Source of the DNA: Candidatus Nomurabacteria bacterium
GTDB taxonomy: Bacteria; Patescibacteriota; Minisyncoccia; Phycocordibacterales; UBA918
NCBI GenBank assembly: GCA_020632075.1
Contig: JACKGH010000001.1
Coordinates: forward strand, 537,778 to 601,777
DNA length: 64,000 nucleotides
Direction of reading: 5' to 3'
In this document: positions 6,001-43,339 of the stretch, piece after piece
Position numbering within the stretch: the stretch's first letter is position 1
How the letters are laid out: every line of letters begins with the position of its first letter
Position numbers and translations under genes: made by a program
Notes under the pieces: model-generated
Databases searched by the model: none
What the model saw: the letters and a program-made list of their open reading frames with translations, nothing else
Told to the model about the DNA's origin: nothing

Positions 6001-9000
6001 ATTATCATAACCAGCAGTAGAGACGTCCCATGGTGTACTGAGTGTATAAGAATAGATCGTGTTGTTGGTGCCACCGACTACATACATCTTGGTGCCACCT
6101 GAAGAAAAACTCACTCCCTGTGGCCCAGTGTCTTGAGAACTTACACTGGTCGCGTGGGTATAGGCTGCAGTAGAGACATCCCACGCGGTTGAGAGTGTGT
6201 ATTCATAGACACTATTGTTGTCATTTCCGGCTACAAACATTGTAGAACCATCACTCGAGAACGCTACACCCATTGGAGTACCGTCTTGGGACTGCACACT
6301 GGTCGCGTGAGTGTAGGCTGCAGTAGAGACATCCCACGCGGTTGAGAGCGCGTATTCATAGACCTTATCTGTAGTAACTCCTGTGATGTACATATTCGTG
6401 CCGTCAGTTGAGAACGCAAGACCTCGCTGGGCAGAATCCTCATCAGTAGACGATGAGTTTGTATAAGAAGCAGTGGTCAGGTCAAAACCAATACCAGCCG
6501 CGTACAGTGTGCCTCCGTCCGCATCGAAGGTTCCATTCTGTGTCAGATCACCAGTGACCGTGAGAGAATTTGATACCGAAAGGACTGTCCCCTCTGTAAC
6601 GTCTACTTCTGAGGTAGAGGCATTGGCTGGAAATTCTATAGTCTGAACACCGGCCGTCACAAGCTTACCAAGTGATGAAGCACCGGTAAGCGTACCAGTG
6701 AAGGCAGAGCTGGTACTGAAGTCATACTCGTAGACTCGGCCACCCACCTGCGTCGACACGATATACATCTTGTCGAGATCGGCTGAAAAGTTTATGTCAC
6801 GCGGCTCAGTAACCACCGTCCCAACACTGAAAGTGTCAGCAAGCACAGCGGTCGAGACATCCCACGCGGTTGAGAGTGTATATTCGTAGACACTATCATT
6901 CTCATAACCTGACACAAACATCTTGTAGCCATCTCTCGCAAACACAAGACCATGCGGAAATTCGTCTTGTGTCTCAACCAGCTTACTGTCAATAAAGCTA
7001 GCAGTTGAAACATCCCATGGGGTCGAGAGTGTGTACTCATTAACATCATCCCCCCAGTCACCGATCACGAACATCTTGGATCCGTCCGTTGAGAATTGCA
7101 CACTATGCCCATCGCTCTCCTGTGCAGCAACACTGGTCGCGTGCACATAACTAGCAGTCGAGACGTCCCAGGCGGAAGACAAATTGTACTCATGCACTGA
7201 GTCATTCTGTGTACCATTGATGTACATCTTGGTGCCGTCTGGTTTGAAAAAGAGACCAGTTGGCGTATTTTCATACGCCTGCACACTGGTAGCATGAACA
7301 TAGCTGGCTGTTGAAGCGTCCCAAGCAGGTGATAGCGTGTACTGAACCACCTGATCGTTTGTTGAACCAACCACATACATCTTGGTGCCATCAGTCGAAA
7401 AAGCGACCTCTCGTGGACTTGATTCTTGTGTTGTGACTGTCTTGTAGTCCACATAGGCTGCATGCATCAACCCCGCGGTCGTCGTACCACCGTTGTGCGT
7501 AAACACACCGCTATTATTATGAAAATCACCCGTGAGATTCAAATATGCTGGACTTAAGAATGTGTCTCCGCTCCAGATATGTAGTTCCTGTGCTTCCAAG
7601 ATCTTTATCTCGTCGGTCGCAACTGACGCAGTGAATTGTAGATCACTATCATCGGTTGAGTCGTAGTTTGCAAACTCGGTCACACTGGTTGAAGTGCTCC
7701 CCTCTTGGCGCACGATGACTCGATCCTGGTATAGATCGAGGCCTGAAATATGACTCGAAGTCGACGTGGCTTTGGTTACCACCGCCGCTCGAATACTCGA
7801 AGACGCATCAACAAAGACCGTCAACGGCACATCCATACCAAGCAGATATTGATCAACTGCAAAGCTGTACACCCCAGAACCATTAGCAGTCGTGGTAGTA
7901 GCCACTGGTGATCCAGCCCCAACCACTAACTTAATGGTCGCGCCAGTACCAATAACTGTTGACCCTTCATCAGAATACAAAGTCCCCGAAACGGTAGTGG
8001 TAGCATTCTCTTCATACAAACTATCAAGCCTAAGTCCTGAAAACGCTCCATGATCGACATCCATGGTACCAGTGGTAGCCAAGGCAATGTTTTCAACGGA
8101 CACATTGTCGGTTGCACTCATACCTGGCACAAACGCACCATGAGCATGACCCGCATTGTAACTCCATGTATCATTGCGGTTGAATTCATCAGAGCCGGCG
8201 TAATCAATGATCGTGTCATTGACACTAAGTCGAGCAGTCGGATTACCACGTGACACAGCTGCAGCTTCAGATTGCTGTGACCAGAAAAAGATGTAGTCTC
8301 CCGCTACGTCGACTTCTGTAAACGAGTCGGTGGCACTATTGATAGTGAAGGTCGATGCGTCTTCATGAGCTGTGGTGTCCCAAGAAAATTCAGTCAACGT
8401 AGTTGTGTTTTGATCGCCTGAAGTCGCCTCACGAATGAACGTCTCCGCAGCGCTTGGTAATTGAACGATCTCTAACGACCCGCCCTGGAATGTAGCCGTC
8501 AAACCAGCACGCTGAAGGTTCTCAATAGCGAGCACTTCCCCTGCACCAACATCGATGATACCGATGTAGTTAAGAACACCATCTTCAGCCTCTTGTGCAG
8601 TTCGCATCATCGTGGACACTCGCGTCCCCTCTACTTCCACATCATCCAAAGTGATCCGAGAAGTGTACTCCGTTCGATCTGCAGTAGTTCCAGCACCATC
8701 AGCAAACATTGGTAATGAATAGGAAACGAGATACCTGCCAGCATTTGCAATGGTAATATTTGCACCACTTCTTGAGAATCCTGTATCCTCTTCGTTGGTC
8801 GTATCCCACGCCACATCAGCGTGTGTGGTGGAAGCAGAGTTCGCACTCACAGCACCCGAGAGAGCGTACCGTGCGTAGTTCCAAGCATCAGGAAGCTTAA
8901 TGACCTGTACACCATTCCAGCCGGCATTCTCTCGGGTTGGAATACCTGTACTATCGTTGTCTGTTTTGTAGAAGTTCGTTTCAAGTGAGGTGGTCGCACT

Positions 9001-9435
9001 TGCAACATTAATGATCGCGTTACCCGATGTCATACACTCCTGCTGCCCGTTCAGCTTTCTCATATAACATTGTGAGGCACCAGAGGTAGCTGTCACTCCC
9101 CCAATATCGAGCCGACCTTGAATTTCCTTTCTGGTGTTGTCAGTAGCATCAGTTGTTTCCCAGAGCTGCGTATACAACACCAAGTACTTTCCCGTTTCTA
9201 GTTCGAACTTACTTCCACTGTACGTGATCGCTGTTCCCGAAGCATGTGTCTCACTGTTCCAGCCAAAGATCGCTTCACTGGTCGATACTGCGGTGGTATC
9301 GGTAGTGTTTTCACGCACCATGTACTCGAGCATGGTGGCGTGCACTTGAGCCGGGACCGCAAGCACAGCAAACACAAAGAACACTATGAACAGTGACTGA
9401 ATTACTTTTACTTGTGTGATCAATGCGGTCTTCAT
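2941..9435 (-). CDS. Giant secreted repeat protein (2164-aa ORF, N-terminal part of a ~3064-aa protein); signal peptide plus tandem YVTN/NHL-like beta-propeller blade repeats and right-handed-helix-like T/S/G-rich spacer repeats
   Basis: N-terminal MKTALITQVKVIQSLFIVFFVFAVLAVPAQVHA is signal-peptide-like. More than 20 copies of ~50-aa units (FDISTASYLHATSVAAQD.TPVGV..N.TGTKMYVVGSSNDKVYEYDLSSA). The stop lies immediately after a G8 tract. Confidence 0.65.
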   Translation of the reverse strand: MKTALITQVKVIQSLFIVFFVFAVLAVPAQVHATMLEYMVRENTTDTTAVSTSEAIFGWNSETHASGTAITYSGSKFELETGKYLVLYTQLWETTDATDNTRKEIQGRLDIGGVTATSGASQCYMRKLNGQQECMTSGNAIINVASATTSLETNFYKTDNDSTGIPTRENAGWNGVQVIKLPDAWNYARYALSGAVSANSASTTHADVAWDTTNEEDTGFSRSGANITIANAGRYLVSYSLPMFADGAGTTADRTEYTSRITLDDVEVEGTRVSTMMRTAQEAEDGVLNYIGIIDVGAGEVLAIENLQRAGLTATFQGGSLEIVQLPSAAETFIREATSGDQNTTTLTEFSWDTTAHEDASTFTINSATDSFTEVDVAGDYIFFWSQQSEAAAVSRGNPTARLSVNDTIIDYAGSDEFNRNDTWSYNAGHAHGAFVPGMSATDNVSVENIALATTGTMDVDHGAFSGLRLDSLYEENATTTVSGTLYSDEGSTVIGTGATIKLVVGAGSPVATTTTANGSGVYSFAVDQYLLGMDVPLTVFVDASSSIRAAVVTKATSTSSHISGLDLYQDRVIVRQEGSTSTSVTEFANYDSTDDSDLQFTASVATDEIKILEAQELHIWSGDTFLSPAYLNLTGDFHNNSGVFTHNGGTTTAGLMHAAYVDYKTVTTQESSPREVAFSTDGTKMYVVGSTNDQVVQYTLSPAWDASTASYVHATSVQAYENTPTGLFFKPDGTKMYINGTQNDSVHEYNLSSAWDVSTASYVHATSVAAQESDGHSVQFSTDGSKMFVIGDWGDDVNEYTLSTPWDVSTASFIDSKLVETQDEFPHGLVFARDGYKMFVSGYENDSVYEYTLSTAWDVSTAVLADTFSVGTVVTEPRDINFSADLDKMYIVSTQVGGRVYEYDFSTSSAFTGTLTGASSLGKLVTAGVQTIEFPANASTSEVDVTEGTVLSVSNSLTVTGDLTQNGTFDADGGTLYAAGIGFDLTTASYTNSSSTDEDSAQRGLAFSTDGTNMYITGVTTDKVYEYALSTAWDVSTAAYTHATSVQSQDGTPMGVAFSSDGSTMFVAGNDNNSVYEYTLSTAWDVSTAAYTHATSVSSQDTGPQGVSFSSGGTKMYVVGGTNNTIYSYTLSTPWDVSTAGYDNASLYMGNFDTNPNAAVVSTSGRYLYVAGFDSEQVFVYYLSTLYDISSATYLQTFTPTVSLNAFRDIAFSTSGDEFYTLDFNGVDQYSLRDVQTISGTLIATSSLGDVVISGEQSTYFADNASTTDFTISSGAATVTAPVVLTVAGNFTNSGGDFDHNYGVVELTGTSKTLSGTLTGGSALGSVEVFGSYTASNNASTSHLTIASGGSFVAPSLLTITGEYTNNGTFTNNSGTVYLNGYGNQRFSSYRSIGLSSQTEDTTLKGLTFSPDGLKMFTTGSTNDKVYEYTLGTAWVVATKTYVDGLSVATQTDDPIDVQFSDDGRTMYVLGGSSNSKPEAVNEYSLSTAYDVSTASYTDNFTVTTQDATPTGFRLSRNGTKLFILGDDGDDVNEYLLGTAWDVSTATYVDNYSVATEVTSTDGLFFSVNGDYMYVRGDVGEIHQYTLQVPFDVSTANYQEQVLYSSAFAGYGAWLTYDSSILFTNYSAFDRILTIELNAVHQGTMTGSSVFGSVVFDQTKQTFDVANASTSDLTITASAIVIAPTSTLSVAGDYINEGDFTVSADSVTDIAGAYTNSGTYTAAASSSLRVGGDFSNSGTYTGAGGSNLRVAGNYNNTGTKGIDVTSVFTGSGKTISGTLTSSSRFDEVVITGSYSLLDNATTSDLTITSGGALTATDALTITGSYSNAGTFSHNAGVVIVENNGFDISIASYLHATSVAAQDISPYDVAFNTTGTKMYVVGSSNDKVYEYDLSSAFDISTASYLHATSVAAQDGTPVGVTINTTGTKMYMVGDSNNKVYEYDLSSAFDISTASYLHATSVAAQDSTPVGVTINTTGTKMYVVGSSNDKVYEYDLSSAFDISTASYLHATSVAAQDTVPRDLAFNTTGTRMYVIGSSNNKVYEYDLSSAFDISTAAFVSSKDISTEDLFGYGLAFNTTGTKMYMTGSVNDSIYEYVITEEEQTFSGTMTGGSAFNDLVTAGTLPLTFSDNASTTDFTIGSGTATVTAPTLLTVAGDLTNSGGGF
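2948..2955 (-). repeat. Homopolymeric G8 (C8 on + strand) tract at the junction of the two giant-protein ORFs
   Basis: Sequence tcaaaatCCCCCCCCactattag. Frame 1 stops 2 codons after it; frame 2 continues the same repeat motif. Confidence 0.9.
3150..3910 (-). repeat. Near-identical tandem 150-bp (50-aa) coding repeats inside the giant protein gene
   Basis: The string ggaagcagttgaaatatcgaacgcagaggagaggtcgtactcgtagactttgt recurs at ~3421, 3571 and 3721, with diverged copies at ~3270 and ~3870. They encode FDISTASYLHATSVAAQD...KVYEYDLSSA units. Confidence 0.8.
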
Positions 9436-9437
9436 GG

Positions 9438-12400
9438 CTACGTTGTTGGTTCTGGAGCTGAATCTACTGGACTTGCCGGTTCCTCAGCTGGTGGTTCCGG
9501 GGTTGGTTCTGGGTCTTCGGCCGGCAATTCAGACTCTTCACTCTCCTCTTCTACTATTGGCTCGACCGGCGGCTCTTCTGGCATTTCTTCGATCGTCGGT
9601 TCAGTCGTAGGTTCTTCTACTGTCTCCGGGGAACTCGTTGCAGCGTCTTGTTCTTCTGTAGTATCTGGAACGGTTTCGTTTGTACTACTTGCGGTTTGAT
9701 CAGTCGAACTGGCGGTGTCATCAGGCTCAGTACCAGCATTTCCCCCCTGAGTCTGTCCACCCGAGGTGTTGCTGTCAGTATTGGTGCTGCCACCAGCTGA
9801 GCCAGTGTTGTTAGTGCTGCTTGTATCAGTTGTTGCAGCCTGCACATCGAGCAAGAGGCGGAGATCATCCGCAGTCACACACACACCGTCGACACAGAGT
9901 TCATTAGCGATCTCAACGCGATCTGCCTTAAGCGTGAAGACTGAGAGCACGCCATCCACGAAGCGATTTGCGAGAGCAACCAAACGGTCGAAGATAGTTT
10001 CATCCTCATTATCACCGACCACTTCAATGCTGCTAGTGCCCATAAGCGCCTGGATACCAGCAAGCTGAGCATCATCAACCCAACGGAAACCACGATCGAC
10101 AAACATTACGATCTGACCAACCTTCACCTCAGTATTTCGATCAAGATCGATCGTTTCACTTTCAGTCTCGCGAAGTGCTTGGAGTGCTTCAGCGACAGAT
10201 TCACGCTCAATGATGTCATTAGCTTCTTCGATGCGTCCTTCTGTCGTGGTGGCGTTTAGTGGTACACACGGGTCCTCACCAAGCGCTGAGCCACCACCGA
10301 AGTAACAACCATCATCAATACGTGGATCGTATTCAGTGAAGATAGGCTCGAACACTGGATCGATCATGTCATCGCCAAACTGATTGATGTATGTCTCACT
10401 GTACATACGCTCATCATCGAAGTCTTCAAGTGCGATACCGATAGTCGCTCCAGTGCCAGTTGCCTTCATTGCAATACCTGGCAGGCTTGAGAGCATAAGC
10501 TGATCACCCTTCTTGATCGGTCCGTTTTCAGTCGAAAGCTTTACTGGCACACGTCCAGTAAGCGCAACTGGATACCGCGTCTCTCCTTCAGTGAGTGACA
10601 CATCGTCGGCACCGAGGGTGATACCCGGCTTAGTAGAAACCACACCGAGGATCGGTAGAACGCTATCTCGATTGGCTCGTTCGATCGAGAGTTCACCAGC
10701 GAGCGTTACCACCTCACCCGTCTCGAGCGCAGCGCTTGAGAAGTATGTTTCTGCCAAGTCAGAGTTGCCGGTATCGTAATCACGTGCTGAGATCTTACCG
10801 CTTGTAGATGCAGTACACTCACCATCGTAATCGACACAGATACCACCAAATGGGATCTGGAGACCAGCCAAGTTTGCAGTCGAGCCATCGTTACGACCGA
10901 TCGTCGTGGTACCGAATGCAGACACCGTGAATACAGGGTTGTTTGCGTTTCGGAAATCAAGATACTTTGAGGTCGACGATGAGAATGAGCCACCCGTACC
11001 ATTACCGAAGTTCATCTCAAGACCAGTACCTTCGAAATCACTCGAGCTCTGGAAGAGACTCAAAAGCGTAGCGGTCGTGATCGTGTCTGAGTAGCCGCGA
11101 ATCGCGTTACCTTGAGTAGTACCTTCTGTTTCGAAGTACCCACCCGCTGGCTCGTAGGTTGCTCCCGCATCGCCAGTTGTTACACCGCGTACACCAAAGG
11201 TACGAGCGAAGCCTGAAAGTGCGGTGTTTTCACCGTACGTATTGATACCGCGGTGTGCCTGCACTTCAAGACCACGCACAGTATTTGCGTAGTCTGTACT
11301 ATCTTGTACCCGGATCATACTACCAACGAGTGTGGTGGTCGCGGTATTTGAAGCTGTAAGGTAAAAGCGGTTACCATACTGCACCGCATCTTCAACAGAG
11401 TTAGTAGTCTGCAAGTACTGATCGAATCCGATCACTCCTGCACCATCAAAGTCGGTGCTTTCAAGAGTAAGCTTCGCGCTTGGAGTGGTGCTACCAATAC
11501 TGACCGAAGTACTGCCAATACCTCCCTGACCATCAGCGCGACCAAAGACAGTAAGAAGTGGCGTACCGTCAAGACTTGCCGAGTAGCTCATGACCGTACC
11601 GGTTGCAGACGCAGTCGTGACTCCCATGTCAGTCCACGAGACGATTCCCGCATCATCCGCAAACGTCATGTTACCCAGTGCGAGATTCTCAATCGTGGTC
11701 TGGTTGGTCGCACTATCATATGAGATCGCACCATTAGCGACTTCGAAGTCACCGGTGAGAGCGATCTTTGGATAGGTACCATCAGTATCGATACGGAAGA
11801 TCGGTGAGGCTGATGATGAGGTAGCGATGGTGAACGCAAACGCAGTACTGTCTTTAATAGTACTGGTAGCGTTGGTGAAGTACTGGAGAAGAAGGTCACT
11901 CGCTGAAGAAGAAGCGAATGAGATCACGTTTGAATCAAGCCAGGTGTCACCAGCGACTGAGAGTTTAGCGCTTGGGGATGAGGTACCGATGCCAACGAAT
12001 CCACTATTGTCGACCGTGAGTACTCGCCCACTCGCGTTATCGAGCGTGAGGATGTCACCAGTACCGAGCTGAGTGATCGAGGTGCTCGTAGCAGAGGTTG
12101 AGCCGGTGATGCTGAAGAGGTTGTATGCACGTTCGTCGTCGGTGGTGATGGTAGTGCGGTCCCATTCGTTGTAGCGGGTGTCGGTACCTGCATCACTGAC
12201 GTAGGTGGTGGTGTCGGGGTTGATGTAGGTATTGCCCACAATGACGGTGTGTTCGGAGTTTACCGTCTCGATCTCGATCAATGCAGCGGTACCGGTGGCC
12301 CTAATACTGTTACCAGAAATGAGAACGTCATCTGGCGCAACACCGCCAATATCATCAAGAAAGATGCTGGCATTTCCGCCACCACCATTCGCAATAAGGA

Positions 12401-15400
12401 CATTACCAGACACAAGAGTACGATCACTCGACCAAGAAACCCGAATACCATACACACTATTGGTGGCGATTTGGTTACCAATAATACTGTTGTCTGTTGC
12501 CCCCTGCCCCGTCACGATACCTTCAGGGTTCCCGGCAACGGTGTTGTCTGAAATAATGTTTCGACTCGCGTTTAGACCAATTTCAATACCGTAACTACCA
12601 TTACCATAAACCTGGTTGTTGGAGACGTGGTTTTCGACACTTGCTGTTCCCAAATACAAACCATGCCCGCTACCACTATTCATCTGGTTGCTGGTAATAA
12701 TGTTGTTGTTTGAGTTTGAGTTAACAAGAACGTTGTAACTACTATTACTATTGACTTGATTGCCCACAACCATGTTGTCCGAACTCTCGTCTAAGTAAAC
12801 ACCGTACACACTATCCTCAACCAAGTTCCCTTGCACAACGTTTTCATTTGAGCTAGTGAGCAACCCGATACCAATCCCAGCCGCGTCATCACTATTAATG
12901 AAACTGTTCGCAACAGTGTTGTTTGAACTTGAGACGAGATAAATACCCAAGTTTTCATTACCACCGGCAGTGACCTGCTCCACAGTATTACCGTTGGCAT
13001 ACGACAAGTACACACCAGCATTTTGAAAATCATTTGCGATGACATGCGCAATCGAAGACGAGCTGGTATTACTAAACCAGATACCATACTGATCATCACT
13101 GGCGGTGTTATTACTTAGATTACCTTCAAGGTGCAGACCAGCCACGCGCACGTGATTGCTCGACGTTGCCAGAATCATAGCGACCGTGTTGGCGGTATTC
13201 GCATCAAGTGTGAGAACTGTGCTGCTTCCCTGTCCAATCAGACTGGTAGAGGAAGCCAAGGTGATCACGCTGGTGGCGTAGGTGGTCGTACCGACCGCGT
13301 AATTTCCCGCGAGCAGCCGGACTTCGCCGCCGCCGTTACCAGCAACGTAATCAATCGCTGCCTGAATGGTCGCTTCATCAGCGGTCCCATCCGCCGTATA
13401 GTCTGCATACGCTTTCTCATTCGCTGGACTGTCTGCAGCAGCGACGACTACGGCGGTGTCACCGGCTGATTTGATACATGAGCCAGAAGCATCTTGGAAA
13501 CAACCACCCTCAAGCTTGATGCCGTTGGCGAAGGTTGAGGTGGCAGTGGTGGTTGAGACATAAAGGATGTTCTCGATGGTGGTGGTTGCACTGGTGAGGG
13601 TGAGGAGACCGTTGGTGCCCACTGTAGAACCAGTACCGATCTTGAAGGTGTCGTCGGTGTCGTCGAGGCCGAGGTAGAAGTCGACTGCAGAACCATCAAA
13701 CAGTGCAGCCAGATCTTCAGCCAGACCTGTTCCAAATGTAATAGTAGAACCAGTCCCTCCGGTTGAACTGATACTCAAGTCTCCACTCGCATTCACACTA
13801 AGCTCACTGTAATTAGACCCATCATACGAAAGTCGCAGTGCGTTTGAGGTACCAAAGATATCAAGCATTGCTCCTGGTGAAGCTGTACCAAGTCCAAGGT
13901 TGGTTCCGTCATACACAAAGGTTGAATCAAAGGCCAGGGCTGAACCAGAGACGTATGGGATAGCGTTGGTGGTATATGAACCTGGAGTATCAGAAAGACC
14001 AAGGAAGGTACCATTACCTAAGCCAAGGCTTGAGGTAGCAATGTCTGCCCAGGCTGAACCATTCCAATATAAGAGGTCACCGTAGTTTTCGGTCATTGCG
14101 GCGACATCAGAGAGGTCTTCGAGGGCGGAGGCGCCGGCTGAGAAACCAAGGGTGGTGGTTGAGACCCAGTCGAAGCCACCAGCTGCGGTGCTTGAAGCTT
14201 GAAGGACATAGCCATTGACCCAGTTGGAAGCAGCCAGGCTTGAAGAAGCAACGGTGGTAGTTGAGAGGACTCCGTTAGCATCGGCGGTGAGGAGGCCGCT
14301 GGTGAGACCACTCACAGTGAGAGTGCCGTCGTTACCAACCGTGAAAACGCGACCAGTCGCGTTGTCTAGAGTAAGGATGTCACCAGTACCGAGCTGAGTG
14401 ATCGAGGTACTCGTAGCTGAGGTTGAGCCGGTGATGCTGAAGAGGTCGTGTGTGCGGGTGGTTGGCGTTGTGAGTGTGCGGCGATCAAACTGATCGAACA
14501 TCGTTCCGGTACCTAAGTCACGGACAGACAGTGCTCCAGTGCCTGAGTGTGTATTATTTGCAATAACGTTATCGTTTGCGGTCGAAGATTGGATATCAAT
14601 CGCTCGTCCAGTCCCGGCCGCACTCACGATCCGGTTACCGGTGATGAGGTTTCGATCAGAGTTACTGCTGACGATAACTCCCGTTCCGGTCGCACCTCCA
14701 TTATTGTTGTTTATGAAATTGTTACCGCTCACTAAGTTATCAGAACTATTCTCAACGAACACACCTACTGTTGTGTTGTTTTGGAAGGTGTTTCCGGTGA
14801 CGGTGTTGTTACTTGATCCGTTTTCAAAATAAATTCCTCGGTTACTGCTCTCAAAGACGTTACCGGTGACTAGGTTGTAATCACCATTGTAGAAAAGAAC
14901 ACCTTGGTTACCCATGTCACGAAAGATGTTGCCAGTAACAGTGTTGTATCCACCAAGATAAAATGTGATTCCCTCCCAAGAGTTATCATGAATAGTATTA
15001 TTTGCAAAAATGGTGTGATAGACCGTATCAGCATCAATACCGTAGTTGCTGAATCCGGAAATCATGTTGTTCGTAATCTGGTTTCCTCGGGTACTAGTAT
15101 AGAGGCGGATACCGGAACCTCGTCCATCTTTAATCGATAGACCAGTGATCGTCGAACTTGCTGTGCCAGCAAAGTGAATACCGTGCTGGGTACCAGTAGT
15201 CTGCCCGGTTTTATTCAAGTCGAGCGTCATATCACGCACTGTGATATCTGTCACACCAGTTGCGTAGAACATGTAGTAGGTCGCATTGAAACTGTTCCTG
15301 AGCTGCAAAACAGTGCTCTTGCCAGAACCAACCAATGCTACTGAGGATGTTGCAAAATTAATACCACGATTCGAAAAACTGGTTGTACCAAGAGTGAATG

Positions 15401-16769
15401 TACCCGGAAGGAGGTGCACCATACCCCCACTCGCCGACAACGAATCAAGAGCCTGTTGGATCTCAACTTCGTCATCAGTACCGTCTGCAACATAATCTGC
15501 GTGTGCCTTCTGACTCGCTGGAGAATCGCTTGCCGCAACTACCACCATGGTGTCACCATTCCAAGATGAAGTGCCTGTCGTAACCCAACTTGAACCATTC
15601 CAATAGAGAACGTCGTTGGTGGCAATGCTGGTAGTAGAGACATCTGAGAGCTGACCAAGCTGCAGTGCATTTTGTGCAAAGTAGTATGCACTCGAAGTAC
15701 TGAAGCCACCACTCAGGAACGCTGCTGCTTCGTAGCCATCAAGGGTACCGGTCCAGTCTCCGGTCTTGGTGAGATACGAATCACCAATAGCCGCACCGTT
15801 CCAAGTCGCATCATAGATCGTACCGTCCACCTCAAGATCACCACTGATGAATGCACTGTTGTATCGATTACCAGACGCAATGCTACTGATGGTTGACGAG
15901 CCTACAGTAAGAAGTGTCGTTGGTGAAGTAGTGCCGATACCAACGTACCCACCGCTTGCAATAGTCATTCGAGATGCGTTATTGGTGATAAGACGAAGGT
16001 CATGAGCTGAGACAGTTCCCATGAAGCCTTGGAAGTCTTCACTACGAACATCTACGGTCACACTGTTAGTTTCATCGATGAAGCGACCACCTGCATTTGT
16101 CGTGCTAGACACGGTAAGTAATCTAACTGACGTCGCACCAAGTCCAACGTAGCCATTATCCGTAACAGTGAACACTTCTGTACCACCATCAAGTAAGTTC
16201 AGAATGTCACCAGTACCTGACTGGTTAATGGTCAAAAGTGTGTTTGTGTCAGTAGCAGCGATCGTATCTGATTGGTCGGAACGTACAAAACTAGACGACG
16301 CAACACCACCAAGCTTGTATGACTCAAACGCTGCTGGCACAGTGCCGAGCGGCTTGCGAGGACTCATTTCCCCATCCCAACTTGGTGAACCGCCAGTACC
16401 ACCGATCTCAACACCGAGGTAGAGATCTTGGTTGAAGTCAACACTAGTAAGTGGTGAAGTACTGCCGAGCATTACACTGAAGAGACCGTTGGTAACCTGT
16501 ACACCTTCACTAGAACCAACAAGTCGTTCCTCGGTCCACACTGCTGACGTGGTAGCCTGACTGGTATTCTGCAACAACCAAAAACGCATGTTGTATGTAC
16601 CGTCTGACACCGTCGCGCCAGTAGCATCGGTAAGCTTTCCTTGGTAGTTGATGTTCGGATTTGGTTCAGCGTGTACCGTAGACGTCCAACCTAAAAGACT
16701 GACACCAAAGGAGAGGAGTAGCAAGAAAGCAAGTTTAGTTGTAATGTTTCGCGCCGCCATACTTACCAT
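9438..16769 (-). CDS. Giant secreted protein (2443 aa) with two tandem modules each containing a right-handed parallel beta-helix (pectate-lyase/tailspike-like, PbH1-type NxxGN repeats); C-terminal acidic Pro/Glu/Thr-rich tail
   Basis: Signal peptide MVSMAARNITTKLAFLLLLSFGVSLLGWTSTVHA. Repeats such as NNTVTGNTFQNNTTVGVFVENSSDNLVSGNNFINN and NNTVANSFINSDDAAGIGIG... Duplicated flanks: LYWNGS.W before and LFSITGSTSATSTSITQLGTGDILTLDNA after each helix domain. C-terminus EPTIEEMPEEPPVEPIVEEESEESELPAEDPEPTPEPP. The stop is 2 nt from the start of the next giant gene. Confidence 0.65.
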   Translation of the reverse strand: MVSMAARNITTKLAFLLLLSFGVSLLGWTSTVHAEPNPNINYQGKLTDATGATVSDGTYNMRFWLLQNTSQATTSAVWTEERLVGSSEGVQVTNGLFSVMLGSTSPLTSVDFNQDLYLGVEIGGTGGSPSWDGEMSPRKPLGTVPAAFESYKLGGVASSSFVRSDQSDTIAATDTNTLLTINQSGTGDILNLLDGGTEVFTVTDNGYVGLGATSVRLLTVSSTTNAGGRFIDETNSVTVDVRSEDFQGFMGTVSAHDLRLITNNASRMTIASGGYVGIGTTSPTTLLTVGSSTISSIASGNRYNSAFISGDLEVDGTIYDATWNGAAIGDSYLTKTGDWTGTLDGYEAAAFLSGGFSTSSAYYFAQNALQLGQLSDVSTTSIATNDVLYWNGSSWVTTGTSSWNGDTMVVVAASDSPASQKAHADYVADGTDDEVEIQQALDSLSASGGMVHLLPGTFTLGTTSFSNRGINFATSSVALVGSGKSTVLQLRNSFNATYYMFYATGVTDITVRDMTLDLNKTGQTTGTQHGIHFAGTASSTITGLSIKDGRGSGIRLYTSTRGNQITNNMISGFSNYGIDADTVYHTIFANNTIHDNSWEGITFYLGGYNTVTGNIFRDMGNQGVLFYNGDYNLVTGNVFESSNRGIYFENGSSNNTVTGNTFQNNTTVGVFVENSSDNLVSGNNFINNNNGGATGTGVIVSSNSDRNLITGNRIVSAAGTGRAIDIQSSTANDNVIANNTHSGTGALSVRDLGTGTMFDQFDRRTLTTPTTRTHDLFSITGSTSATSTSITQLGTGDILTLDNATGRVFTVGNDGTLTVSGLTSGLLTADANGVLSTTTVASSSLAASNWVNGYVLQASSTAAGGFDWVSTTTLGFSAGASALEDLSDVAAMTENYGDLLYWNGSAWADIATSSLGLGNGTFLGLSDTPGSYTTNAIPYVSGSALAFDSTFVYDGTNLGLGTASPGAMLDIFGTSNALRLSYDGSNYSELSVNASGDLSISSTGGTGSTITFGTGLAEDLAALFDGSAVDFYLGLDDTDDTFKIGTGSTVGTNGLLTLTSATTTIENILYVSTTTATSTFANGIKLEGGCFQDASGSCIKSAGDTAVVVAAADSPANEKAYADYTADGTADEATIQAAIDYVAGNGGGEVRLLAGNYAVGTTTYATSVITLASSTSLIGQGSSTVLTLDANTANTVAMILATSSNHVRVAGLHLEGNLSNNTASDDQYGIWFSNTSSSSIAHVIANDFQNAGVYLSYANGNTVEQVTAGGNENLGIYLVSSSNNTVANSFINSDDAAGIGIGLLTSSNENVVQGNLVEDSVYGVYLDESSDNMVVGNQVNSNSSYNVLVNSNSNNNIITSNQMNSGSGHGLYLGTASVENHVSNNQVYGNGSYGIEIGLNASRNIISDNTVAGNPEGIVTGQGATDNSIIGNQIATNSVYGIRVSWSSDRTLVSGNVLIANGGGGNASIFLDDIGGVAPDDVLISGNSIRATGTAALIEIETVNSEHTVIVGNTYINPDTTTYVSDAGTDTRYNEWDRTTITTDDERAYNLFSITGSTSATSTSITQLGTGDILTLDNASGRVLTVDNSGFVGIGTSSPSAKLSVAGDTWLDSNVISFASSSASDLLLQYFTNATSTIKDSTAFAFTIATSSSASPIFRIDTDGTYPKIALTGDFEVANGAISYDSATNQTTIENLALGNMTFADDAGIVSWTDMGVTTASATGTVMSYSASLDGTPLLTVFGRADGQGGIGSTSVSIGSTTPSAKLTLESTDFDGAGVIGFDQYLQTTNSVEDAVQYGNRFYLTASNTATTTLVGSMIRVQDSTDYANTVRGLEVQAHRGINTYGENTALSGFARTFGVRGVTTGDAGATYEPAGGYFETEGTTQGNAIRGYSDTITTATLLSLFQSSSDFEGTGLEMNFGNGTGGSFSSSTSKYLDFRNANNPVFTVSAFGTTTIGRNDGSTANLAGLQIPFGGICVDYDGECTASTSGKISARDYDTGNSDLAETYFSSAALETGEVVTLAGELSIERANRDSVLPILGVVSTKPGITLGADDVSLTEGETRYPVALTGRVPVKLSTENGPIKKGDQLMLSSLPGIAMKATGTGATIGIALEDFDDERMYSETYINQFGDDMIDPVFEPIFTEYDPRIDDGCYFGGGSALGEDPCVPLNATTTEGRIEEANDIIERESVAEALQALRETESETIDLDRNTEVKVGQIVMFVDRGFRWVDDAQLAGIQALMGTSSIEVVGDNEDETIFDRLVALANRFVDGVLSVFTLKADRVEIANELCVDGVCVTADDLRLLLDVQAATTDTSSTNNTGSAGGSTNTDSNTSGGQTQGGNAGTEPDDTASSTDQTASSTNETVPDTTEEQDAATSSPETVEEPTTEPTIEEMPEEPPVEPIVEEESEESELPAEDPEPTPEPPAEEPASPVDSAPEPTT

Positions 16770-17506
16770 TTACGAACATTAACCGGCACTTCTATCAACG
16801 GTACTAACGCACCAACCACTCGACCTGACTCGTCGACCTTTGCTGCTACCTGCGTACCATCGCTCAGCTCGTAGATCTCTACCGTATCTGAAAACAACAT
16901 ATCGACGGTCGCAGAGGCACTACTGGTTCCTTGTGGCATGAGTAAAATACCGTGCGTTGGGTCAGCCGAAAACGAATGCACTGAAGAGGTAGGCACTGCA
17001 ACCACGACAGCTCCCATATCGCTCACTGGACCGTTTGACTGATCAGACACAGTGGTGCGCACAGGTTGTGGAGCCTGAGCAACTTGCGTACTTACTACCG
17101 GAGTCTTGATCAGCCGTGAACTGAGCATGTCATGCTCGTAGACAACGTATCCGCTGAAGAGTCCGACGAGCAAAACGAATGTCGCCACTGAGAGTGAACG
17201 AGCATGCAGTGACTGCACTCGCTTGAGCTGTAGAGTATTCTGCTGTTCCGCTACTGCTCGAAGCTCTCGCTCCCGTTTGCGTTCAAGACGAAGTTGCTTC
17301 TTGCGAATTTCTTGTTCGGCATTAATTGTATCGACATACGACTTGAGAGAGTTTAGATCAACGTACCACTGTCGGCCCACATAAGTGGCAACAATTTTTT
17401 GCTCGCGTGCAAGGCGAGTGATGTAGTCTCGTGAGTATGTGACAAGGTCTGCAATATCCTTGATTGGATACAACTGCTTTCCGTCAATTTCTAATGCACT
17501 GGACAT
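16763..17506 (-). CDS. Membrane-anchored HTH protein: N-terminal excisionase/MerR-type helix-turn-helix, coiled-coil, single TM helix, ~120-aa extracytoplasmic C-terminal domain (ToxR-like topology)
   Basis: IKDIADLVTYSRDYITRLAREQKIVATYVGRQWYV matches the HTH_17 pattern (..GR.W.V). Charged heptad region RKKQLRLERKRERELRAVAEQQ. TM helix SVATFVLLVGLFSGYVVY. Overlaps the start of the giant gene by 7 nt. Confidence 0.55.
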   Translation of the reverse strand: MSSALEIDGKQLYPIKDIADLVTYSRDYITRLAREQKIVATYVGRQWYVDLNSLKSYVDTINAEQEIRKKQLRLERKRERELRAVAEQQNTLQLKRVQSLHARSLSVATFVLLVGLFSGYVVYEHDMLSSRLIKTPVVSTQVAQAPQPVRTTVSDQSNGPVSDMGAVVVAVPTSSVHSFSADPTHGILLMPQGTSSASATVDMLFSDTVEIYELSDGTQVAAKVDESGRVVGALVPLIEVPVNVRKW

Positions 17507-17585: not shown

Positions 17586-18638
17586 CTACGGTTGCAAGAC
17601 TTGCAGGAGATTTGCAACCTGCAACACAACCTGAGATTCATACACTGTGTCAGCGACGATCACTTGTGAACTCGCTGAGAACAAAACGGTAACACACACC
17701 AAAGCGAGCACTGAGGCGATCAGAGGAGAGATCAATACCATAAGCGGCATTTCCTTCATGGCAGCGGCTTGCTGAACCATTTGTGGTGCAAAAGATGAAA
17801 TAGTCGATTGTAGACCTGCTTTCGCTCGAGATTTCTTATCTGGCTGTAGTGGAGATTCTATCCTTTTCGCTGAAATAGTTGCTTTTTCAATCTTTTTTTC
17901 AAAATCTGTACTCAAAACTGTTTTCTTGTCAGCAAAATCAGCGACGATGTTTACTTTTTGCTTTCGTTTTCCAGCAATCTCAACAACCGTGACTCTTTTT
18001 ACCTTTGGCTTTACGAGTGCAACTTCATCCGAGATAACCTTATTATTAAGCACATTTTCTTCATCACTAAGACTCTCCTCTTCATTCTCATCGACGTCAG
18101 GGTAGTCTGTAACTGTAAGAGAACCCGACAGAGACACTTCAGGCAATGGATCAGCTGCAAACACTGAGGTTGTTTTCTCAGCTGCGATATGAATTCGAGT
18201 TGCATTAGCATGCTCAATGCGAATTCTTCTAGGTGGTTTGGGGACTTTTCTCGTGAGACTAGGAAGCAATGCTTCTTCATCTGGCTCATAGGCTACAGCC
18301 AACGAACGTTCTCGCTGTCCCATTTTGTTTACAGTCGTCTTAGATACTTTAACCGTTTTTGGAGTAAGAACAGCCGGGACACTTTTCCGATGTATCTTTG
18401 TTTTACTAGCTATATCTTGTTTTTGCTCTTCTCGATCCTTTTTCACTAATTGTGAATGTCTGTTTCTTTTGTGTTCAACTAGCGATTCTGGATTTACAAA
18501 CCACGTCCGCCCAACTAAACGAGCGTCAATCTTTTTCGCACGGCAGAGCTGGCCAATGTAGTCTGAAGTATACTTAAATTCCTTCGCAGCATGCGAAGCT
18601 TTAATGTAGGCAACTCCATCAAAAACTACAGTCTCCAT
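17586..18638 (-). CDS. Paralogous HTH protein: excisionase/MerR-type HTH N-terminus, long Lys/Glu-rich linker, C-terminal TM anchor (tail-anchored)
   Basis: KYTSDYIGQLCRAKKIDARLVGRTWFVNPESL aligns with the N-terminus of the downstream paralog. C-terminal hydrophobic segment MVLISPLIASVLALVCVTVLF. Confidence 0.55.
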   Translation of the reverse strand: METVVFDGVAYIKASHAAKEFKYTSDYIGQLCRAKKIDARLVGRTWFVNPESLVEHKRNRHSQLVKKDREEQKQDIASKTKIHRKSVPAVLTPKTVKVSKTTVNKMGQRERSLAVAYEPDEEALLPSLTRKVPKPPRRIRIEHANATRIHIAAEKTTSVFAADPLPEVSLSGSLTVTDYPDVDENEEESLSDEENVLNNKVISDEVALVKPKVKRVTVVEIAGKRKQKVNIVADFADKKTVLSTDFEKKIEKATISAKRIESPLQPDKKSRAKAGLQSTISSFAPQMVQQAAAMKEMPLMVLISPLIASVLALVCVTVLFSASSQVIVADTVYESQVVLQVANLLQVLQP

Positions 18639-32195: not shown

Positions 32196-32295
32196 ATTGT
32201 ATTTAGTATTTTGTTTGAATTATTTGTAACACAAAAGAACCTTCGCTAATTTCACCATCACATTGCACCCTGCTCAGATCCACTCACTACCAACT

Positions 32296-32329
32296 CTTTC
32301 TGGTATATAATACACTGCGAGACTTCACT
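32296..32329 (+). promoter_or_regulatory. Candidate -10 box (TATAAT, extended TG-like) upstream of the plus-strand FkbM methyltransferase gene; divergent promoter region 32196-32329
   Basis: tggTATATAATacactgcgagacttcact ATG; the -10 lies ~19 nt upstream of the start codon. Confidence 0.3.
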
Positions 32330-33043: not shown

Positions 33044-33059
33044 GTGCTGACAGCTCAAC

Positions 33060-35013: not shown

Positions 35014-35019
35014 ACCTTA

Positions 35020-35685: not shown

Positions 35686-35688
35686 AAA

Positions 35689-36804: not shown

Positions 36805-36818
36805 TATCTTTCTCTTGA

Positions 36819-37208: not shown

Positions 37209-37219
37209 AATTTTCTAAA

Positions 37220-39471: not shown

Positions 39472-39571
39472 ACAATATGGATATACCTGTAACAACTTAT
39501 CTGATTTGTAGTTACAGTATTATAACGTTTATTGAAAATATCACCATTCGAGGGAAAAACGATCACACTTT

Positions 39572-40306: not shown

Positions 40307-40348
40307 ATTATGGTAGCCAGAGACCTGAAAACTGTTCTTTTGTGCCCC

Positions 40349-42267: not shown

Positions 42268-42272
42268 AGTGA

Positions 42273-43319: not shown

Positions 43320-43339
43320 AGATCATTTATAACCTAAAA

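What the first reader, a model, noticed from the sequence alone, without database searches (positions are those of the whole stretch)
9438..16769. 2443-aa secreted protein with a duplicated module containing two tailspike/pectate-lyase-like beta-helix domains and an acidic PE-rich tail
After a signal peptide the protein contains two copies of a ~650-aa module: [..LYWNGS.W..] - [..ADY.ADGT.DE..IQ.A.D......GG.V.LL.G.....TT] - a run of PbH1-type parallel beta-helix turns (N..V.GN.F.NN......) - [..LFSITGSTSATSTSITQLGTGDILTLDNA.GRV.TV.N.G]. Right-handed beta-helix domains with this N-terminal cap are typical of pectate/polysaccharide lyases, GH28/GH55-type glycosidases and phage tailspike depolymerases. 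Two of them on an exported >250-kDa protein suggest a carbohydrate-binding or degrading surface appendage. For a likely host-dependent, small-genome bacterium this is a plausible host-attachment or host-envelope-remodelling factor (hypothesis). The C-terminal ~60 aa are extremely acidic and Pro-rich (EPTIEEMPEEPPVEPIVEEESEE...PEPTT), a possible cell-wall-spanning or tethering stalk. The gene is translationally contiguous with giant protein B (stop at 9438, next start at 9435).
Basis: partly seen in the sequence, partly recalled or inferred. Interest (0 to 1): 0.6.

Follow-up and report, generated by a model that had tools for sequence, protein, structure and literature searches.

The report
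Tailspike-like surface fibre of a CPR bacterium
This giant secreted protein of a small-genome (Patescibacteria) bacterium is built like a phage tailspike, with two sugar-enzyme-like beta-helix bodies on a fibre and a self-cleaving folding domain at its end. It belongs to a large family with swappable middle parts and is a good candidate for how these bacteria recognise their hosts.

Summary
Window 9438-16769 (-) is one 2443-aa ORF, probably starting at Met4. It has a signal peptide, an internal duplication (residues 276-863 vs 958-1623, 30% identity, E=4e-42), two right-handed beta-helix domains and an acidic, proline-rich tail.

The beta-helices most resemble the AlgE4/AlgE6 mannuronan-epimerase A-modules (profile E=7e-32; Foldseek TM 0.69/0.77). 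The AlgE catalytic tetrad is absent from both copies and is not conserved across 17 related cassettes, so enzymatic activity is unsupported.

Homologues from Patescibacteria share a conserved N-terminal domain and a conserved roughly 560-aa C-terminal module. Between these lie variable cassettes: beta-helix, LVIVD propeller, LamG and others. The C-terminal module contains a phi29 gp12-type (Peptidase G2) autochaperone. Its top Foldseek hit is pre-mature gp12 (3SUC). The invariant NS|DLAExYF motif aligns with the gp12 cleavage site S691|D692, which predicts cleavage at S2003|D2004. The acidic tail lies beyond that site and has no wall anchor.

Best reading: a trimeric, self-processing, tailspike-like cell-surface fibre, analogous to the Bdellovibrio MAT fibres and probably used for host recognition. 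It is a new variant of a known kind.

The parts
9438..16769 (-). Whole ORF, 2443 aa including the stop codon. The likely true start is Met4, ATG at 16758-16760.
16668..16769 (-). Residues 1-34: Sec-type signal peptide (n-region R/K, hydrophobic core LAFLLLLSFGVSLLGW, VHA|EP).
   Evidence: (only hydrophobic segment of the protein) plus inspection. No dedicated predictor was run.
16260..16667 (-). Residues 35-170: conserved N-terminal domain of the family (NINYQGKLTD...). Presumed cell-proximal base.
   Evidence: Covered by 115 of 120 homologues. 77-79% identical in syntenic loci. 758 database proteins match the profile. No Pfam family.
15573..16259 (-). Residues 171-399: fibre segment 1 with GTGDIL / GxVGIGTxxP repeat units and LYWNGSSW.
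   Evidence: Matches the fibre repeat of Bdellovibrio MAT structures 8ojn (E=0.0079) and 8ond.
14445..15572 (-). Residues 400-775: beta-helix cassette 1 (cap VVVAASDSPA..ADYVADGTDDEVEIQ, then PbH1 coils).
   Evidence: Pfam NosD and Beta_helix. AF2 pLDDT 83.6. Foldseek top hits AlgE6/AlgE4. Profile vs AlgE4 E=7e-32.
14358..14444 (-). Residues 776-804: junction motif LFSITGSTSATSTSITQLGTGDILTLDNA (copy 1), where the chain re-enters the fibre.
   Evidence: Lies inside the 115-nt direct DNA repeat 14338-14452.
13479..14357 (-). Residues 805-1097: fibre segment 2, including LYWNGSAW at 900.
12120..13478 (-). Residues 1098-1550: beta-helix cassette 2, longer than cassette 1 because it has more coils.
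   Evidence: (AlgG 1.4e-6), and 71 (profile A3 hits at 4.7e-88 and 7e-80).
12033..12119 (-). Residues 1551-1579: junction motif, copy 2.
   Evidence: DNA repeat 12013-12127 is 89% identical to 14338-14452, and the spacing of 2325 nt equals 775 codons.
11535..12032 (-). Residues 1580-1745: fibre segment 3 (GFVGIGTSSPSAKLSV...).
10761..11534 (-). Residues 1746-2003: conserved pre-cleavage domain. Presumed trimeric shaft or prism templated by the chaperone.
   Evidence: Conserved in about 90 of 120 homologues. Many invariant residues. Low monomer pLDDT. No phage or Pfam match.
10749..10766 (-). Residues 2002-2007: NSDLAE. Predicted autocleavage between S2003 and D2004.
   Evidence: Invariant in 29/29 sequences. 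Aligns with phi29 gp12 S691|D692-F-A-E695. Mature gp12* ends at residue 691 (PMC6542822).
10290..10760 (-). Residues 2004-2160: Peptidase-G2-like intramolecular chaperone (autochaperone) beta-sandwich.
   Evidence: Pfam PF11962 in 11 of 29 family members, best 1.4e-6, query 0.0052. Foldseek top hit 3SUC. BFVD 'preneck appendage protein'. tblastn and HMM hit to the C-terminus of PA5oct gp359.
9840..10289 (-). Residues 2161-2310: conserved helix-rich extension with two Cys pairs (C2155/C2168, C2292/C2297).
9441..9839 (-). Residues 2311-2443: low-complexity tail, S/T/N/G-rich then E/P-rich. No anchor motif.
   Evidence: Homologue coverage falls to 17-47 of 120.
16763..17506 (-). Upstream 247-aa protein: HTH_17-like N-terminus, one transmembrane helix and an extracytoplasmic C-terminal domain. 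Conserved neighbour of the fibre gene.
   Evidence: immediately upstream in 5/5 loci.
17586..18638 (-). Upstream 350-aa paralogue-like protein: similar N-terminal HTH-like motif and a C-terminal transmembrane helix. Conserved neighbour.
   Evidence: present in the window, L001, L002 and L006.

Best explanation
This gene encodes a phage-tailspike-like fibre displayed on the surface of a Patescibacteria (Paceibacteria-type) cell. The proposed mechanism has five steps.

1. Export. The 2443-aa precursor is exported by Sec and its signal peptide is removed. The signal peptide is shown only by sequence inspection.
2. Anchoring. The conserved N-terminal domain (residues 35-170) is proposed to sit at the cell surface and hold the fibre. 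This is inferred by analogy with the Bdellovibrio MAT fibres.
3. Shaft and bodies. Fibre repeats of the GxVGIGTxxP type form the shaft. Two AlgE-A-module-like right-handed beta-helix cassettes are inserted in series, giving two tailspike-like bodies. The fold is shown; the trimeric packing is inferred.
4. Assembly and cleavage. The conserved C-terminal module nucleates trimer folding outside the cell. Residues 2004-2160 form a phi29 gp12-type (Peptidase G2) autochaperone. After assembly the chain is predicted to cut itself between Ser2003 and Asp2004. Homology and the aligned motif are shown; the cleavage itself is inferred. That cut would separate the chaperone, the helical extension and the acidic tail from the mature fibre.
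5. Specificity. Across the family the two ends are conserved while the middle is a set of interchangeable cassettes. The beta-helices are therefore most likely the specificity-determining, glycan-binding part used to recognise the envelope of a host or partner cell. They are less likely to be conserved enzymes.
For: - Beta-helices: Pfam and NCBIfam hits. AF2 model with pLDDT 83.6. Foldseek top hits AlgE6/AlgE4, TMq 0.69, TMt 0.77, followed by lyases, phage tailspikes and the adhesin PfbA.
- Scaffold: of 120 homologues, 115 share the N-terminus and about 90 share residues 1750-2310 at 50-74% identity, while the middle region is covered by only 6-30.
- Orthologous locus: in a 977-kb contig, with the same gene order (Wzy, MurB, SecA, Obg, GatB, 355-aa protein, HTH_17 protein), the fibre is 4147 aa and carries an LVIVD propeller plus three beta-helices.
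- Autochaperone: PF11962 matches 11 of 29 family members, best E=1.4e-6. Foldseek PDB top hit is 3SUC, pre-mature phi29 gp12, E=4.2e-4, probability 1.0. hhalign and hmmsearch align the invariant NSDLAExYF with gp12 WS691|D692FAEYF. BFVD hits include 'Preneck appendage protein' at 33% identity, E=6e-9. The C-terminus of a mass-spectrometry-confirmed virion protein of phage PA5oct matches at 43% identity.
- gp12 biology: the gp12 C-terminal domain is an autochaperone that is cleaved off after folding (PMC3357383). Mature gp12* ends at residue 691 (PMC6542822).
- Fibre repeats match the Bdellovibrio MAT structures Bd2133 (8ond) and 8ojn. MAT fibres are signal-peptide-bearing, surface-displayed trimers with a conserved N-terminal domain, and they bind prey glycans (PMC10769870).
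- The same Patescibacteria N-terminal domain also occurs with S74 chaperone domains. This parallels the S74 and non-S74 subgroups of MAT.
- Not a prophage: the flanks are housekeeping genes and synteny is conserved.
Against: - No experiment shows trimerisation, cleavage or surface display for any member of this family.
- The query's own Pfam G2 score (16.7 bits) is below the gathering threshold of 25. hhalign probability is only 52% over 66 columns.
- From my memory of Xiang et al. 2009 (not checked here), release of the cleaved gp12 chaperone needs ATP, which is not available outside the cell. The C-terminal fragment might therefore stay attached.
- Homology of the N-terminal domain to the MAT N-terminal domain could not be tested.
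- The conserved 1746-2003 domain was modelled with low confidence, so its fold is unknown.
- Glycan binding is inferred only from the fold and from the pattern of variability.
- Whether this bacterium has a host at all is not known from the window.
Confidence: 0.6

Rival explanations
1. The beta-helix cassettes are active polysaccharide-modifying enzymes (depolymerase, lyase or epimerase). In this reading the fibre is a surface-mounted tool for cutting or remodelling the host envelope, as in phage tailspike depolymerases and the teichoic-acid-degrading phi29 gp12.
For: Nearly all the closest sequence and structure relatives are enzymes: AlgE4/AlgE6, AlgG, RbmB lyase, inulin fructotransferases, GH110, alpha-1,3-glucanase and tailspike depolymerases. 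The fibre uses a tailspike-type assembly module.
Against: The AlgE catalytic tetrad Y149/D152/H154/D178 (PMC7385640) is absent in both copies, and those columns are hypervariable in 17 cassettes. The AlgG DPHD region aligns with NSNS. Residues conserved in at least 80% of 20 cassettes are the cap, the Asn ladder, glycines and the exit motif; no charged residue inside the coils is conserved. No GH or PL Pfam family is hit. Non-enzymatic beta-helix relatives exist, namely NosD and the adhesin PfbA.
Confidence: 0.2
2. It is a purely structural envelope component, such as an S-layer or sheath protein or a spacer, with no role in recognising other cells.
For: It is large, exported and rich in Thr, Ser and Gly. 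It sits next to cell-envelope genes (Wzy-type ligase, MurB, SecA) and at a conserved chromosomal position.
Against: No SLH or other S-layer family is found. The central part is extremely variable between orthologous loci, which fits a diversifying ligand-binding protein rather than a lattice. The assembly module is of the type used by elongated trimeric adhesins and tailspikes.
Confidence: 0.1
3. It is a genuine phage gene, a prophage or tailocin tailspike or tail fibre, and not a cellular protein.
For: The C-terminal domain matches phage virion proteins. PHROG tailspike families give weak hits. The upstream gene has an excisionase-like HTH_17 motif.
Against: The protein has an N-terminal signal peptide. 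No other phage genes are nearby: the neighbours are GatB, Obg, SecA and MurB. The same gene order is kept in five loci from different Patescibacteria. The upstream HTH proteins carry transmembrane helices and are not excisionases by architecture.
Confidence: 0.03

Closest known systems
Bacillus phage phi29 pre-neck appendage protein gp12 (tailspike; MEROPS/Pfam Peptidase_G2, PDB 3SUC and 3GQ7)
   Same: A right-handed beta-helix body is followed by a C-terminal autochaperone domain of the same fold. The cleavage motif S|D-x-A-E-x-(Y)F aligns residue for residue. The logic is N-terminal attachment and C-terminal assembly.
   Different: This protein is cellular and Sec-exported rather than a virion protein. 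It is three times longer and has two beta-helix bodies separated by fibre segments. Its chaperone region is about 300 aa plus a 130-aa acidic tail, against 163 aa in gp12. Sequence similarity is limited to about 70 residues. No teichoic-acid esterase site was identified. The ATP-dependent release described for gp12 (from memory) cannot operate outside the cell.
Bdellovibrio bacteriovorus MAT (mosaic adhesive trimeric) fibres, e.g. Bd2133, Bd3182, Bd2439 (PMC10769870)
   Same: Both have a signal peptide followed by a conserved N-terminal domain, then a long fibre with the GNVGIGTxxPxAKLxV repeat, mosaic variable modules and an optional self-cleaving chaperone. Both are encoded by a bacterium that depends on contact with other cells. 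S74-terminated versions with the same N-terminal domain exist in Patescibacteria.
   Different: MAT proteins are about 1000 aa and carry their variable domain at the C-terminal tip. Here both ends are conserved and the variable cassettes are internal. The chaperone is of G2 type rather than S74. The host lineage is monoderm-like CPR, not a Gram-negative predator. Homology of the N-terminal domains is untested.
AlgE4/AlgE6 A-modules (Azotobacter mannuronan C-5 epimerases; PDB 2PYG, 5LW3)
   Same: These are the best sequence and structure match for each cassette, including the DG(T/V)xDDxxxIQAAID..GGGxVxL cap and the coil geometry (E=7e-32; TMt 0.77, rmsd 3.2 A).
   Different: The catalytic Tyr/Asp/His/Asp tetrad is not conserved. 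No Ca-binding R-modules were found by Pfam. The cassettes are embedded in a fibre rather than forming a secreted enzyme.
Endosialidase-type tailspikes and tail fibres with the S74 intramolecular chaperone (phage K1F endoNF and others)
   Same: The principle is the same: a C-terminal domain templates trimerisation of a beta-helical fibre and is then removed by self-cleavage at a Ser-Asp bond.
   Different: The chaperone family and fold differ. PF13884 is not detected in this protein, and the SDxxxK motif is absent (SDLAET here).

Membership tests
Right-handed parallel beta-helix repeat proteins (Pfam Beta_helix PF13229 / NosD PF05048; PbH1 repeats) | Significant match to the family profiles above the curated cut-offs | tested here: met
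   PF05048 168.9 bits (cut-off 23.6), PF13229 142.7 bits (cut-off 25.9), TIGR03804 96.9 bits (cut-off 19.45).
Right-handed parallel beta-helix repeat proteins (Pfam Beta_helix PF13229 / NosD PF05048; PbH1 repeats) | Three-stranded right-handed beta-helix fold | tested here: met
   AF2 model with pLDDT 83.6 and pTM 0.80 shows regular three-strand coils. There are 186 PDB matches at E<=1e-3, and all 50 listed are beta-helix proteins.
AlgE-type mannuronan C-5 epimerase / alginate lyase A-module | Sequence and fold similarity over the whole A-module including the cap | tested here: met
   Cassette profile vs 2PYG E=7.2e-32 over profile positions 31-309. Foldseek E=1.3e-11, TMq 0.69, TMt 0.77.
AlgE-type mannuronan C-5 epimerase / alginate lyase A-module | Catalytic residues Tyr149, Asp152, His154, Asp178 (PMC7385640) | tested here: not met
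   They align with S552/R555/Y557/D581 in copy 1 and A1251/Y1254/S1256/V1279 in copy 2. The columns vary freely in 17 cassettes.
   Only NosD and Beta_helix are reported at E<=0.01. The cassette profile hits pectate lyase II only at E=0.0097. Family-specific catalytic residues were not examined individually.
Peptidase G2 (phi29 gp12-type intramolecular chaperone, PF11962) | Pfam profile match above the gathering score | tested here: inconclusive
   The query scores 16.7 bits against a cut-off of 25, E=0.0052. Eleven of 29 family members match at E<=0.1, best 1.4e-6. Homologue P0065, 60% identical in this module, carries a precomputed PF11962 hit.
Peptidase G2 (phi29 gp12-type intramolecular chaperone, PF11962) | Fold of the gp12 autochaperone domain at the C-terminal side of a beta-helical spike | tested here: met
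   The best PDB match of the model is 3SUC, E=4.2e-4, probability 1.0, 177 columns. The region involved has pLDDT 80-91. BFVD hits include 'Preneck appendage protein' at E=6e-9.
Peptidase G2 (phi29 gp12-type intramolecular chaperone, PF11962) | Ser|Asp scissile bond with a downstream Glu (gp12 S691|D692..E695) | tested here: met
   NS2003|D2004LAE2007 is invariant in 29/29 sequences and aligns with gp12 S691/D692/E695 by hhalign and hmmsearch. A catalytic role for the Asp and Glu is my recollection, not checked here.
Peptidase G2 (phi29 gp12-type intramolecular chaperone, PF11962) | Actual self-cleavage after trimerisation | not testable with these tools
   Needs protein expression and mutagenesis.
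MAT fibres of Bdellovibrio (PMC10769870) | Signal peptide followed by an invariant beta-rich N-terminal domain of about 130 aa | tested here: inconclusive
   An equivalent conserved domain of about 135 aa follows the signal peptide. Homology to the MAT domain could not be tested: no MAT N-terminal sequence or structure was available, afdb50 was not available, and the listed profile hits were all Patescibacteria.
MAT fibres of Bdellovibrio (PMC10769870) | Fibre built from the repeated beta-helical unit seen in the Bd2133 and Bd2734 structures | tested here: met
   8ojn_C matches at E=0.0079. 8ond (Bd2133) is matched three times by the GNVGIGTxxPxAKL unit, whole-sequence E=0.0075. The similarity is weak but repeated.
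MAT fibres of Bdellovibrio (PMC10769870) | Variable adhesive domain at the C-terminal tip, or an S74 chaperone | tested here: not met
   The C-terminus is the conserved part and holds a G2-type chaperone, while the variable domains are internal. S74 is not detected in this protein.
Sortase-anchored (LPxTG) Gram-positive surface proteins | C-terminal LPxTG motif, hydrophobic segment and charged tail | tested here: not met
   No LPxT[GAS] motif and no hydrophobic segment outside residues 8-32.
S-layer proteins with SLH or related anchoring domains | SLH or other S-layer Pfam/NCBIfam domain | tested here: not met
   None reported.

The most novel reading that the evidence does not exclude
This family may be the host-range determinant of Paceibacteria-type CPR bacteria. 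In this reading it is a cassette-swappable, tailspike-like fibre whose internal beta-helix, propeller or LamG bodies bind host envelope glycans. Swapping would occur by in-frame recombination at conserved junction repeats. The two membrane-spanning HTH proteins always encoded just upstream would dock the fibre base and couple host contact to transcription, giving outside-in signalling.
Probability: 0.15. Interest if true: 0.85.

Novelty: new variant of a known kind. Interest (0 to 1): 0.58.

Why it matters
How Patescibacteria outside the Saccharibacteria find and hold their hosts is largely unknown. The literature I found points to type IV pili and to unspecified large surface proteins (PMC11665869, PMC13059738).

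This gene gives that question a concrete family to work on. The family has hundreds of members. It has a recognisable scaffold with conserved ends, a predicted self-processing step that a simple expression experiment can test, and a variable middle that could be matched to host envelope chemistry.

It also extends the idea of phage-type trimeric fibres on bacterial cells, so far demonstrated for the predator Bdellovibrio, to a different lifestyle and to a different chaperone family (G2 rather than S74).

For annotation, the lesson is that 'beta-helix repeat protein' should not be read as 'pectate lyase' here.

Tried and rejected
- Back-translated peptide scan of genome contigs with the C-terminal module. 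It returned only 3 loci. These were useful for synteny but too few for a survey.
- Searches with the N-terminal domain, first as a single sequence and then as a profile. They listed only Patescibacteria fragments, so a link to the Bdellovibrio MAT N-terminal domain could not be tested.
- tblastn of the pre-cleavage domain (residues 1746-2003) against phages found nothing. The N-terminal 366 aa gave only a marginal fibre-repeat hit in Pelagibacter phages.
- Exact look-up of the protein in the assembly index. It is not on record.
- Pfam on isolated inter-domain segments. Nothing apart from the sub-threshold G2 hit.
- Similarity between this protein and the downstream giant proteins B and C. None at E<=1e-3, so they are not paralogues.
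- AlgG-type DPHD and AlgE-type YGFDPHE active-site motifs. Absent.
- Literature searches for a prior description of tailspike or IMC-type fibres in CPR/Patescibacteria. They found none. The library is limited, so this is not proof of absence.
Full report
**1. The observation**

The minus strand of window 9438-16769 carries one uninterrupted ORF of 2443 codons starting with ATG. Aligning residues 1-880 against 881-2443 pairs 276-863 with 958-1623 at 30% identity over 697 columns, E=4e-42. The internal duplication is therefore real.

- LYWNGS at 388 and 900.
- VVAAxDSPA at 409 and 1107.
- ADYxADGT at 424 and 1122.
- An identical 29-residue string, LFSITGSTSATSTSITQLGTGDILTLDNA, at 776 and 1551.

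The only hydrophobic segment is at residues 8-32, followed by VHA|EP. This looks like a Sec signal peptide, judged by inspection. The last 60 residues are 37% Asp+Glu and 27% Pro, with net charge -22. The TAG stop is followed after two bases by the ATG of the next giant gene.

One small correction applies. Several homologues begin at the position of Met4, and Met1 overlaps the upstream gene's stop codon. The real start is therefore probably ATG 16758-16760.

**2. The beta-helix domains**

Pfam finds NosD (1.3e-49) and Beta_helix (9.5e-42), and NCBIfam finds the parallel beta-helix repeat. I aligned cassette 1 with cassette 2 and 15 related cassettes from homologues (alignment A3). A profile of that alignment hits the A-modules of the mannuronan C-5 epimerases AlgE4 and AlgE6 at E=7e-32 and 5e-31. 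The match starts at the cap motif DGxxDDxxxIQAAID...GGGTVYL. NosD, AlgG, GH110, inulin fructotransferases and others follow.

The AlphaFold2 model of residues 400-830 is confident (pLDDT 83.6, pTM 0.80) and is a regular right-handed beta-helix. Its best PDB matches are again AlgE6 and AlgE4 (E about 1e-11, TMq 0.69, TMt 0.77, rmsd 3.2 A). After them come the lyase RbmB, the phage tailspikes CBA120 TSP3, Det7 and HK620, and the pneumococcal adhesin PfbA.

**3. Are they enzymes?**

The catalytic residues of AlgE epimerases are Tyr149, Asp152, His154 and Asp178 (PMC7385640). I aligned AlgE4 to the cassette profile.
- In copy 1 these positions are S552, R555, Y557 and D581.
- In copy 2 they are A1251, Y1254, S1256 and V1279.
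- Across the 17 cassettes the four columns carry almost any residue.

The AlgG DPHD region aligns with NSNS. Residues conserved in at least 80% of 20 cassettes are the cap, the asparagine ladder, glycines and the exit motif. No charged residue inside the coils is conserved.

The domain type is very common: 7038 cluster representatives at E<=1e-3 and 77 at 1e-30. I conclude there is no evidence for a shared catalytic site. Individual cassettes could still have their own sites, so an enzymatic role is kept as a rival at about 0.2.

**4.

A database search returned 368 proteins at E<=1e-5. All that carry names come from Patescibacteria: Nomurabacteria, Kaiserbacteria, Paceibacteria and Minisyncoccia.

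Mapping the best 120 onto the query gives this pattern:
- Residues 1-170 are covered by 115 of them.
- Residues 1750-2310 are covered by about 90, at 50-74% identity.
- The region between is covered by only 6-30.

The homologues range from about 1350 to 4270 aa, and their middle parts differ. Pfam families seen there include Beta_helix/NosD (12 of 120), LVIVD propellers (21), EPTP, LamG and Ig-like domains. The beta-helices are thus optional cassettes in a conserved frame.

The closest relative, P0001, matches residues 7-303 and 882-2440 and lacks cassette 1.

One homologue, P0002, lies in a 977-kb contig with the same neighbours as in the window: Wzy-type ligase with TPR, MurB, SecA, Obg, GatB, an unknown protein of about 355 aa, and an HTH_17 protein of about 236 aa. 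Yet it is 4147 aa long, with an LVIVD propeller and three beta-helices, and is followed by another giant gene. The same locus therefore holds differently assembled fibres in related genomes.

The two copies of the junction motif sit in a 115-nt direct DNA repeat that is 89% identical. Their spacing is 2325 nt, exactly 775 codons. Recombination there would add or remove one cassette in frame. That this happens is an inference.

**5. The C-terminal module**

I aligned residues 1746-2320 with 28 homologues (A1). NSDLAExYF is invariant in all 29 sequences.

Evidence that this module contains a phi29 gp12-type autochaperone:
- Pfam Peptidase_G2, the autoproteolytic chaperone domain of the phi29 pre-neck appendage protein, matches the query below threshold (E=0.0052, 16.7 bits). 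It matches 11 of the 29 members, best E=1.4e-6.
- The AlphaFold2 model is confident only for residues about 2005-2155 and 2175-2235. Its top Foldseek hit in the PDB is 3SUC, 'pre-mature bacteriophage phi29 gene product 12' (E=4.2e-4, probability 1.0, 177 columns).
- In the viral library the hits include a 'Preneck appendage protein' (33% identity, E=6e-9), an Atu_ph07 protein, tail proteins and 'intramolecular chaperone auto-processing domain' proteins.
- tblastn finds the segment at 43% identity at the C-terminal end of PA5oct gp359, a virion protein confirmed by mass spectrometry.
- A family HMM scores PA5oct gp359 at 1e-19 and gp12 at 4.5e-5, for a nominal database of 1000 sequences.

Both hhalign and hmmsearch place NS2003|D2004LAE2007 on gp12 WS691|D692FAE695. 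Mature gp12* ends at residue 691 (PMC6542822). The gp12 C-terminal domain is an autochaperone that is cleaved off after folding, and without it the chains aggregate (PMC3357383). I therefore predict self-cleavage between Ser2003 and Asp2004. The homology is shown; the cleavage is inferred.

**6. The fibre and the comparison with MAT proteins**

The repeat unit (GxVGIGTxxPxxxLxV) matches the solved fibre parts of Bdellovibrio proteins: 8ojn at E=0.0079, and Bd2133 (8ond) three times.

Those proteins define the MAT family. MAT proteins have a signal peptide, an invariant N-terminal domain of about 130 aa thought to sit on the predator's surface, a trimeric fibre and mosaic tips. Thirteen of the 21 end in a self-cleaving S74 chaperone. 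At least one MAT protein binds a prey glycan (PMC10769870).

The architecture here is parallel. The Patescibacteria N-terminal domain is also found joined to S74 domains.

There are three differences:
- The chaperone is of G2 type.
- Both ends are conserved and the variable modules are internal.
- The protein is two to four times larger.

I could not test whether the N-terminal domains are homologous.

**7. The acidic tail**

The tail has no LPxTG motif and no hydrophobic anchor. It is the least conserved part of the protein, and homologues end in various low-complexity tails. It lies beyond the predicted cleavage site. The proposal that it tethers the protein to the wall is therefore not supported. 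It may simply be a disordered extension of the chaperone fragment.

One caveat applies. As I recall it, release of the cleaved gp12 chaperone needs ATP. Outside the cell the fragment might remain bound.

**8. Context and rivals**

The gene is chromosomal. Housekeeping genes flank it, and the order is kept in five loci. This argues against a prophage.

Two genes immediately upstream encode proteins with an HTH_17-like N-terminus and one transmembrane helix: a 247-aa protein and a 350-aa protein. They are 37-43% identical between loci, and the 247-aa gene precedes the fibre gene in all five loci. They may regulate or dock the fibre, which is speculation.

An S-layer role is unlikely, given the absence of S-layer domains and the extreme variability of the middle.

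**9. Verdict**

The best explanation is a self-processing, trimeric, tailspike-like surface fibre whose beta-helix cassettes provide binding specificity. I put confidence at about 0.6 for the architecture and assembly, and lower for the biological role. It is a new variant of a known kind: phage-type fibres on bacterial cells, as in MAT, combined with gp12-type maturation. I found no prior description of it in Patescibacteria, although the literature library I searched is limited.

Noticed in passing
window 240-9435 (-), homopolymer at 2948-2955: The two downstream 'giant' ORFs, B (2941-9435, 2164 aa) and C (240-3053, 937 aa), share the same beta-propeller blade repeats at 37-45% identity. They appear to be one gene of about 3070 aa split by a frameshift at the only G8 run in the 64-kb window. 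With seven Gs the frame continues as ...NSGGDFDNNSGTIYLTGSSKTISGTL, which is the repeat motif of B and C. This is either slipped-strand phase variation of a surface protein or an assembly error.
   Followed up: partly
window 16763-17506 (-) and 17586-18638 (-); L001 1516-3277, L002 3757-5548, L003 207-827, L006 8144-9998: A pair of proteins with an HTH_17-like N-terminus and a single transmembrane helix lies directly upstream of the fibre gene in the window and in L001, L002 and L006. The 247-aa one has about 110 extracytoplasmic residues. Only the 247-aa type is seen within the stretch of L003 that is held. The pair may be a membrane-bound regulator or a docking partner.
   Followed up: partly
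window 12013-12127 and 14338-14452: A 115-nt direct repeat, 89% identical, encodes the identical junction peptide at the exit of each beta-helix cassette. The spacing is 2325 nt, exactly 775 codons. The rest of the two modules is only about 30% identical at protein level. This fits strong constraint on the junction, or in-frame recombination that adds or removes cassettes.
   Followed up: partly
window 16758-16769: The annotated ATG (16767-16769) overlaps the upstream gene's TGG-TAA end. Homologues start at the position of Met4, so the start is probably ATG 16758-16760, two bases after the upstream stop.
   Followed up: yes
window about 32000-44000: G+C falls from about 0.49 to 0.38-0.42 over roughly 12 kb. 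The region contains a Polysacc_synt flippase-type gene (33060-34313). It may be a variable or horizontally acquired surface-glycan gene cluster.
   Followed up: no
L006 22821-32444: In the syntenic 977-kb contig the fibre gene is also followed by a second giant gene (4206 aa, running off the held stretch). It has its own signal peptide and shares segments with B and C of the window at 35-50% identity. The tandem of two giant surface proteins is therefore conserved.
   Followed up: partly
window residues 1746-2003 of the ORF (10761-11534): This is the most conserved internal domain of the family, with many invariant Gly, Asn, Arg and Glu residues. It has no Pfam, PDB or phage match, and the monomer model is poor (pLDDT 35-55). 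Its fold is unknown.
   Followed up: partly
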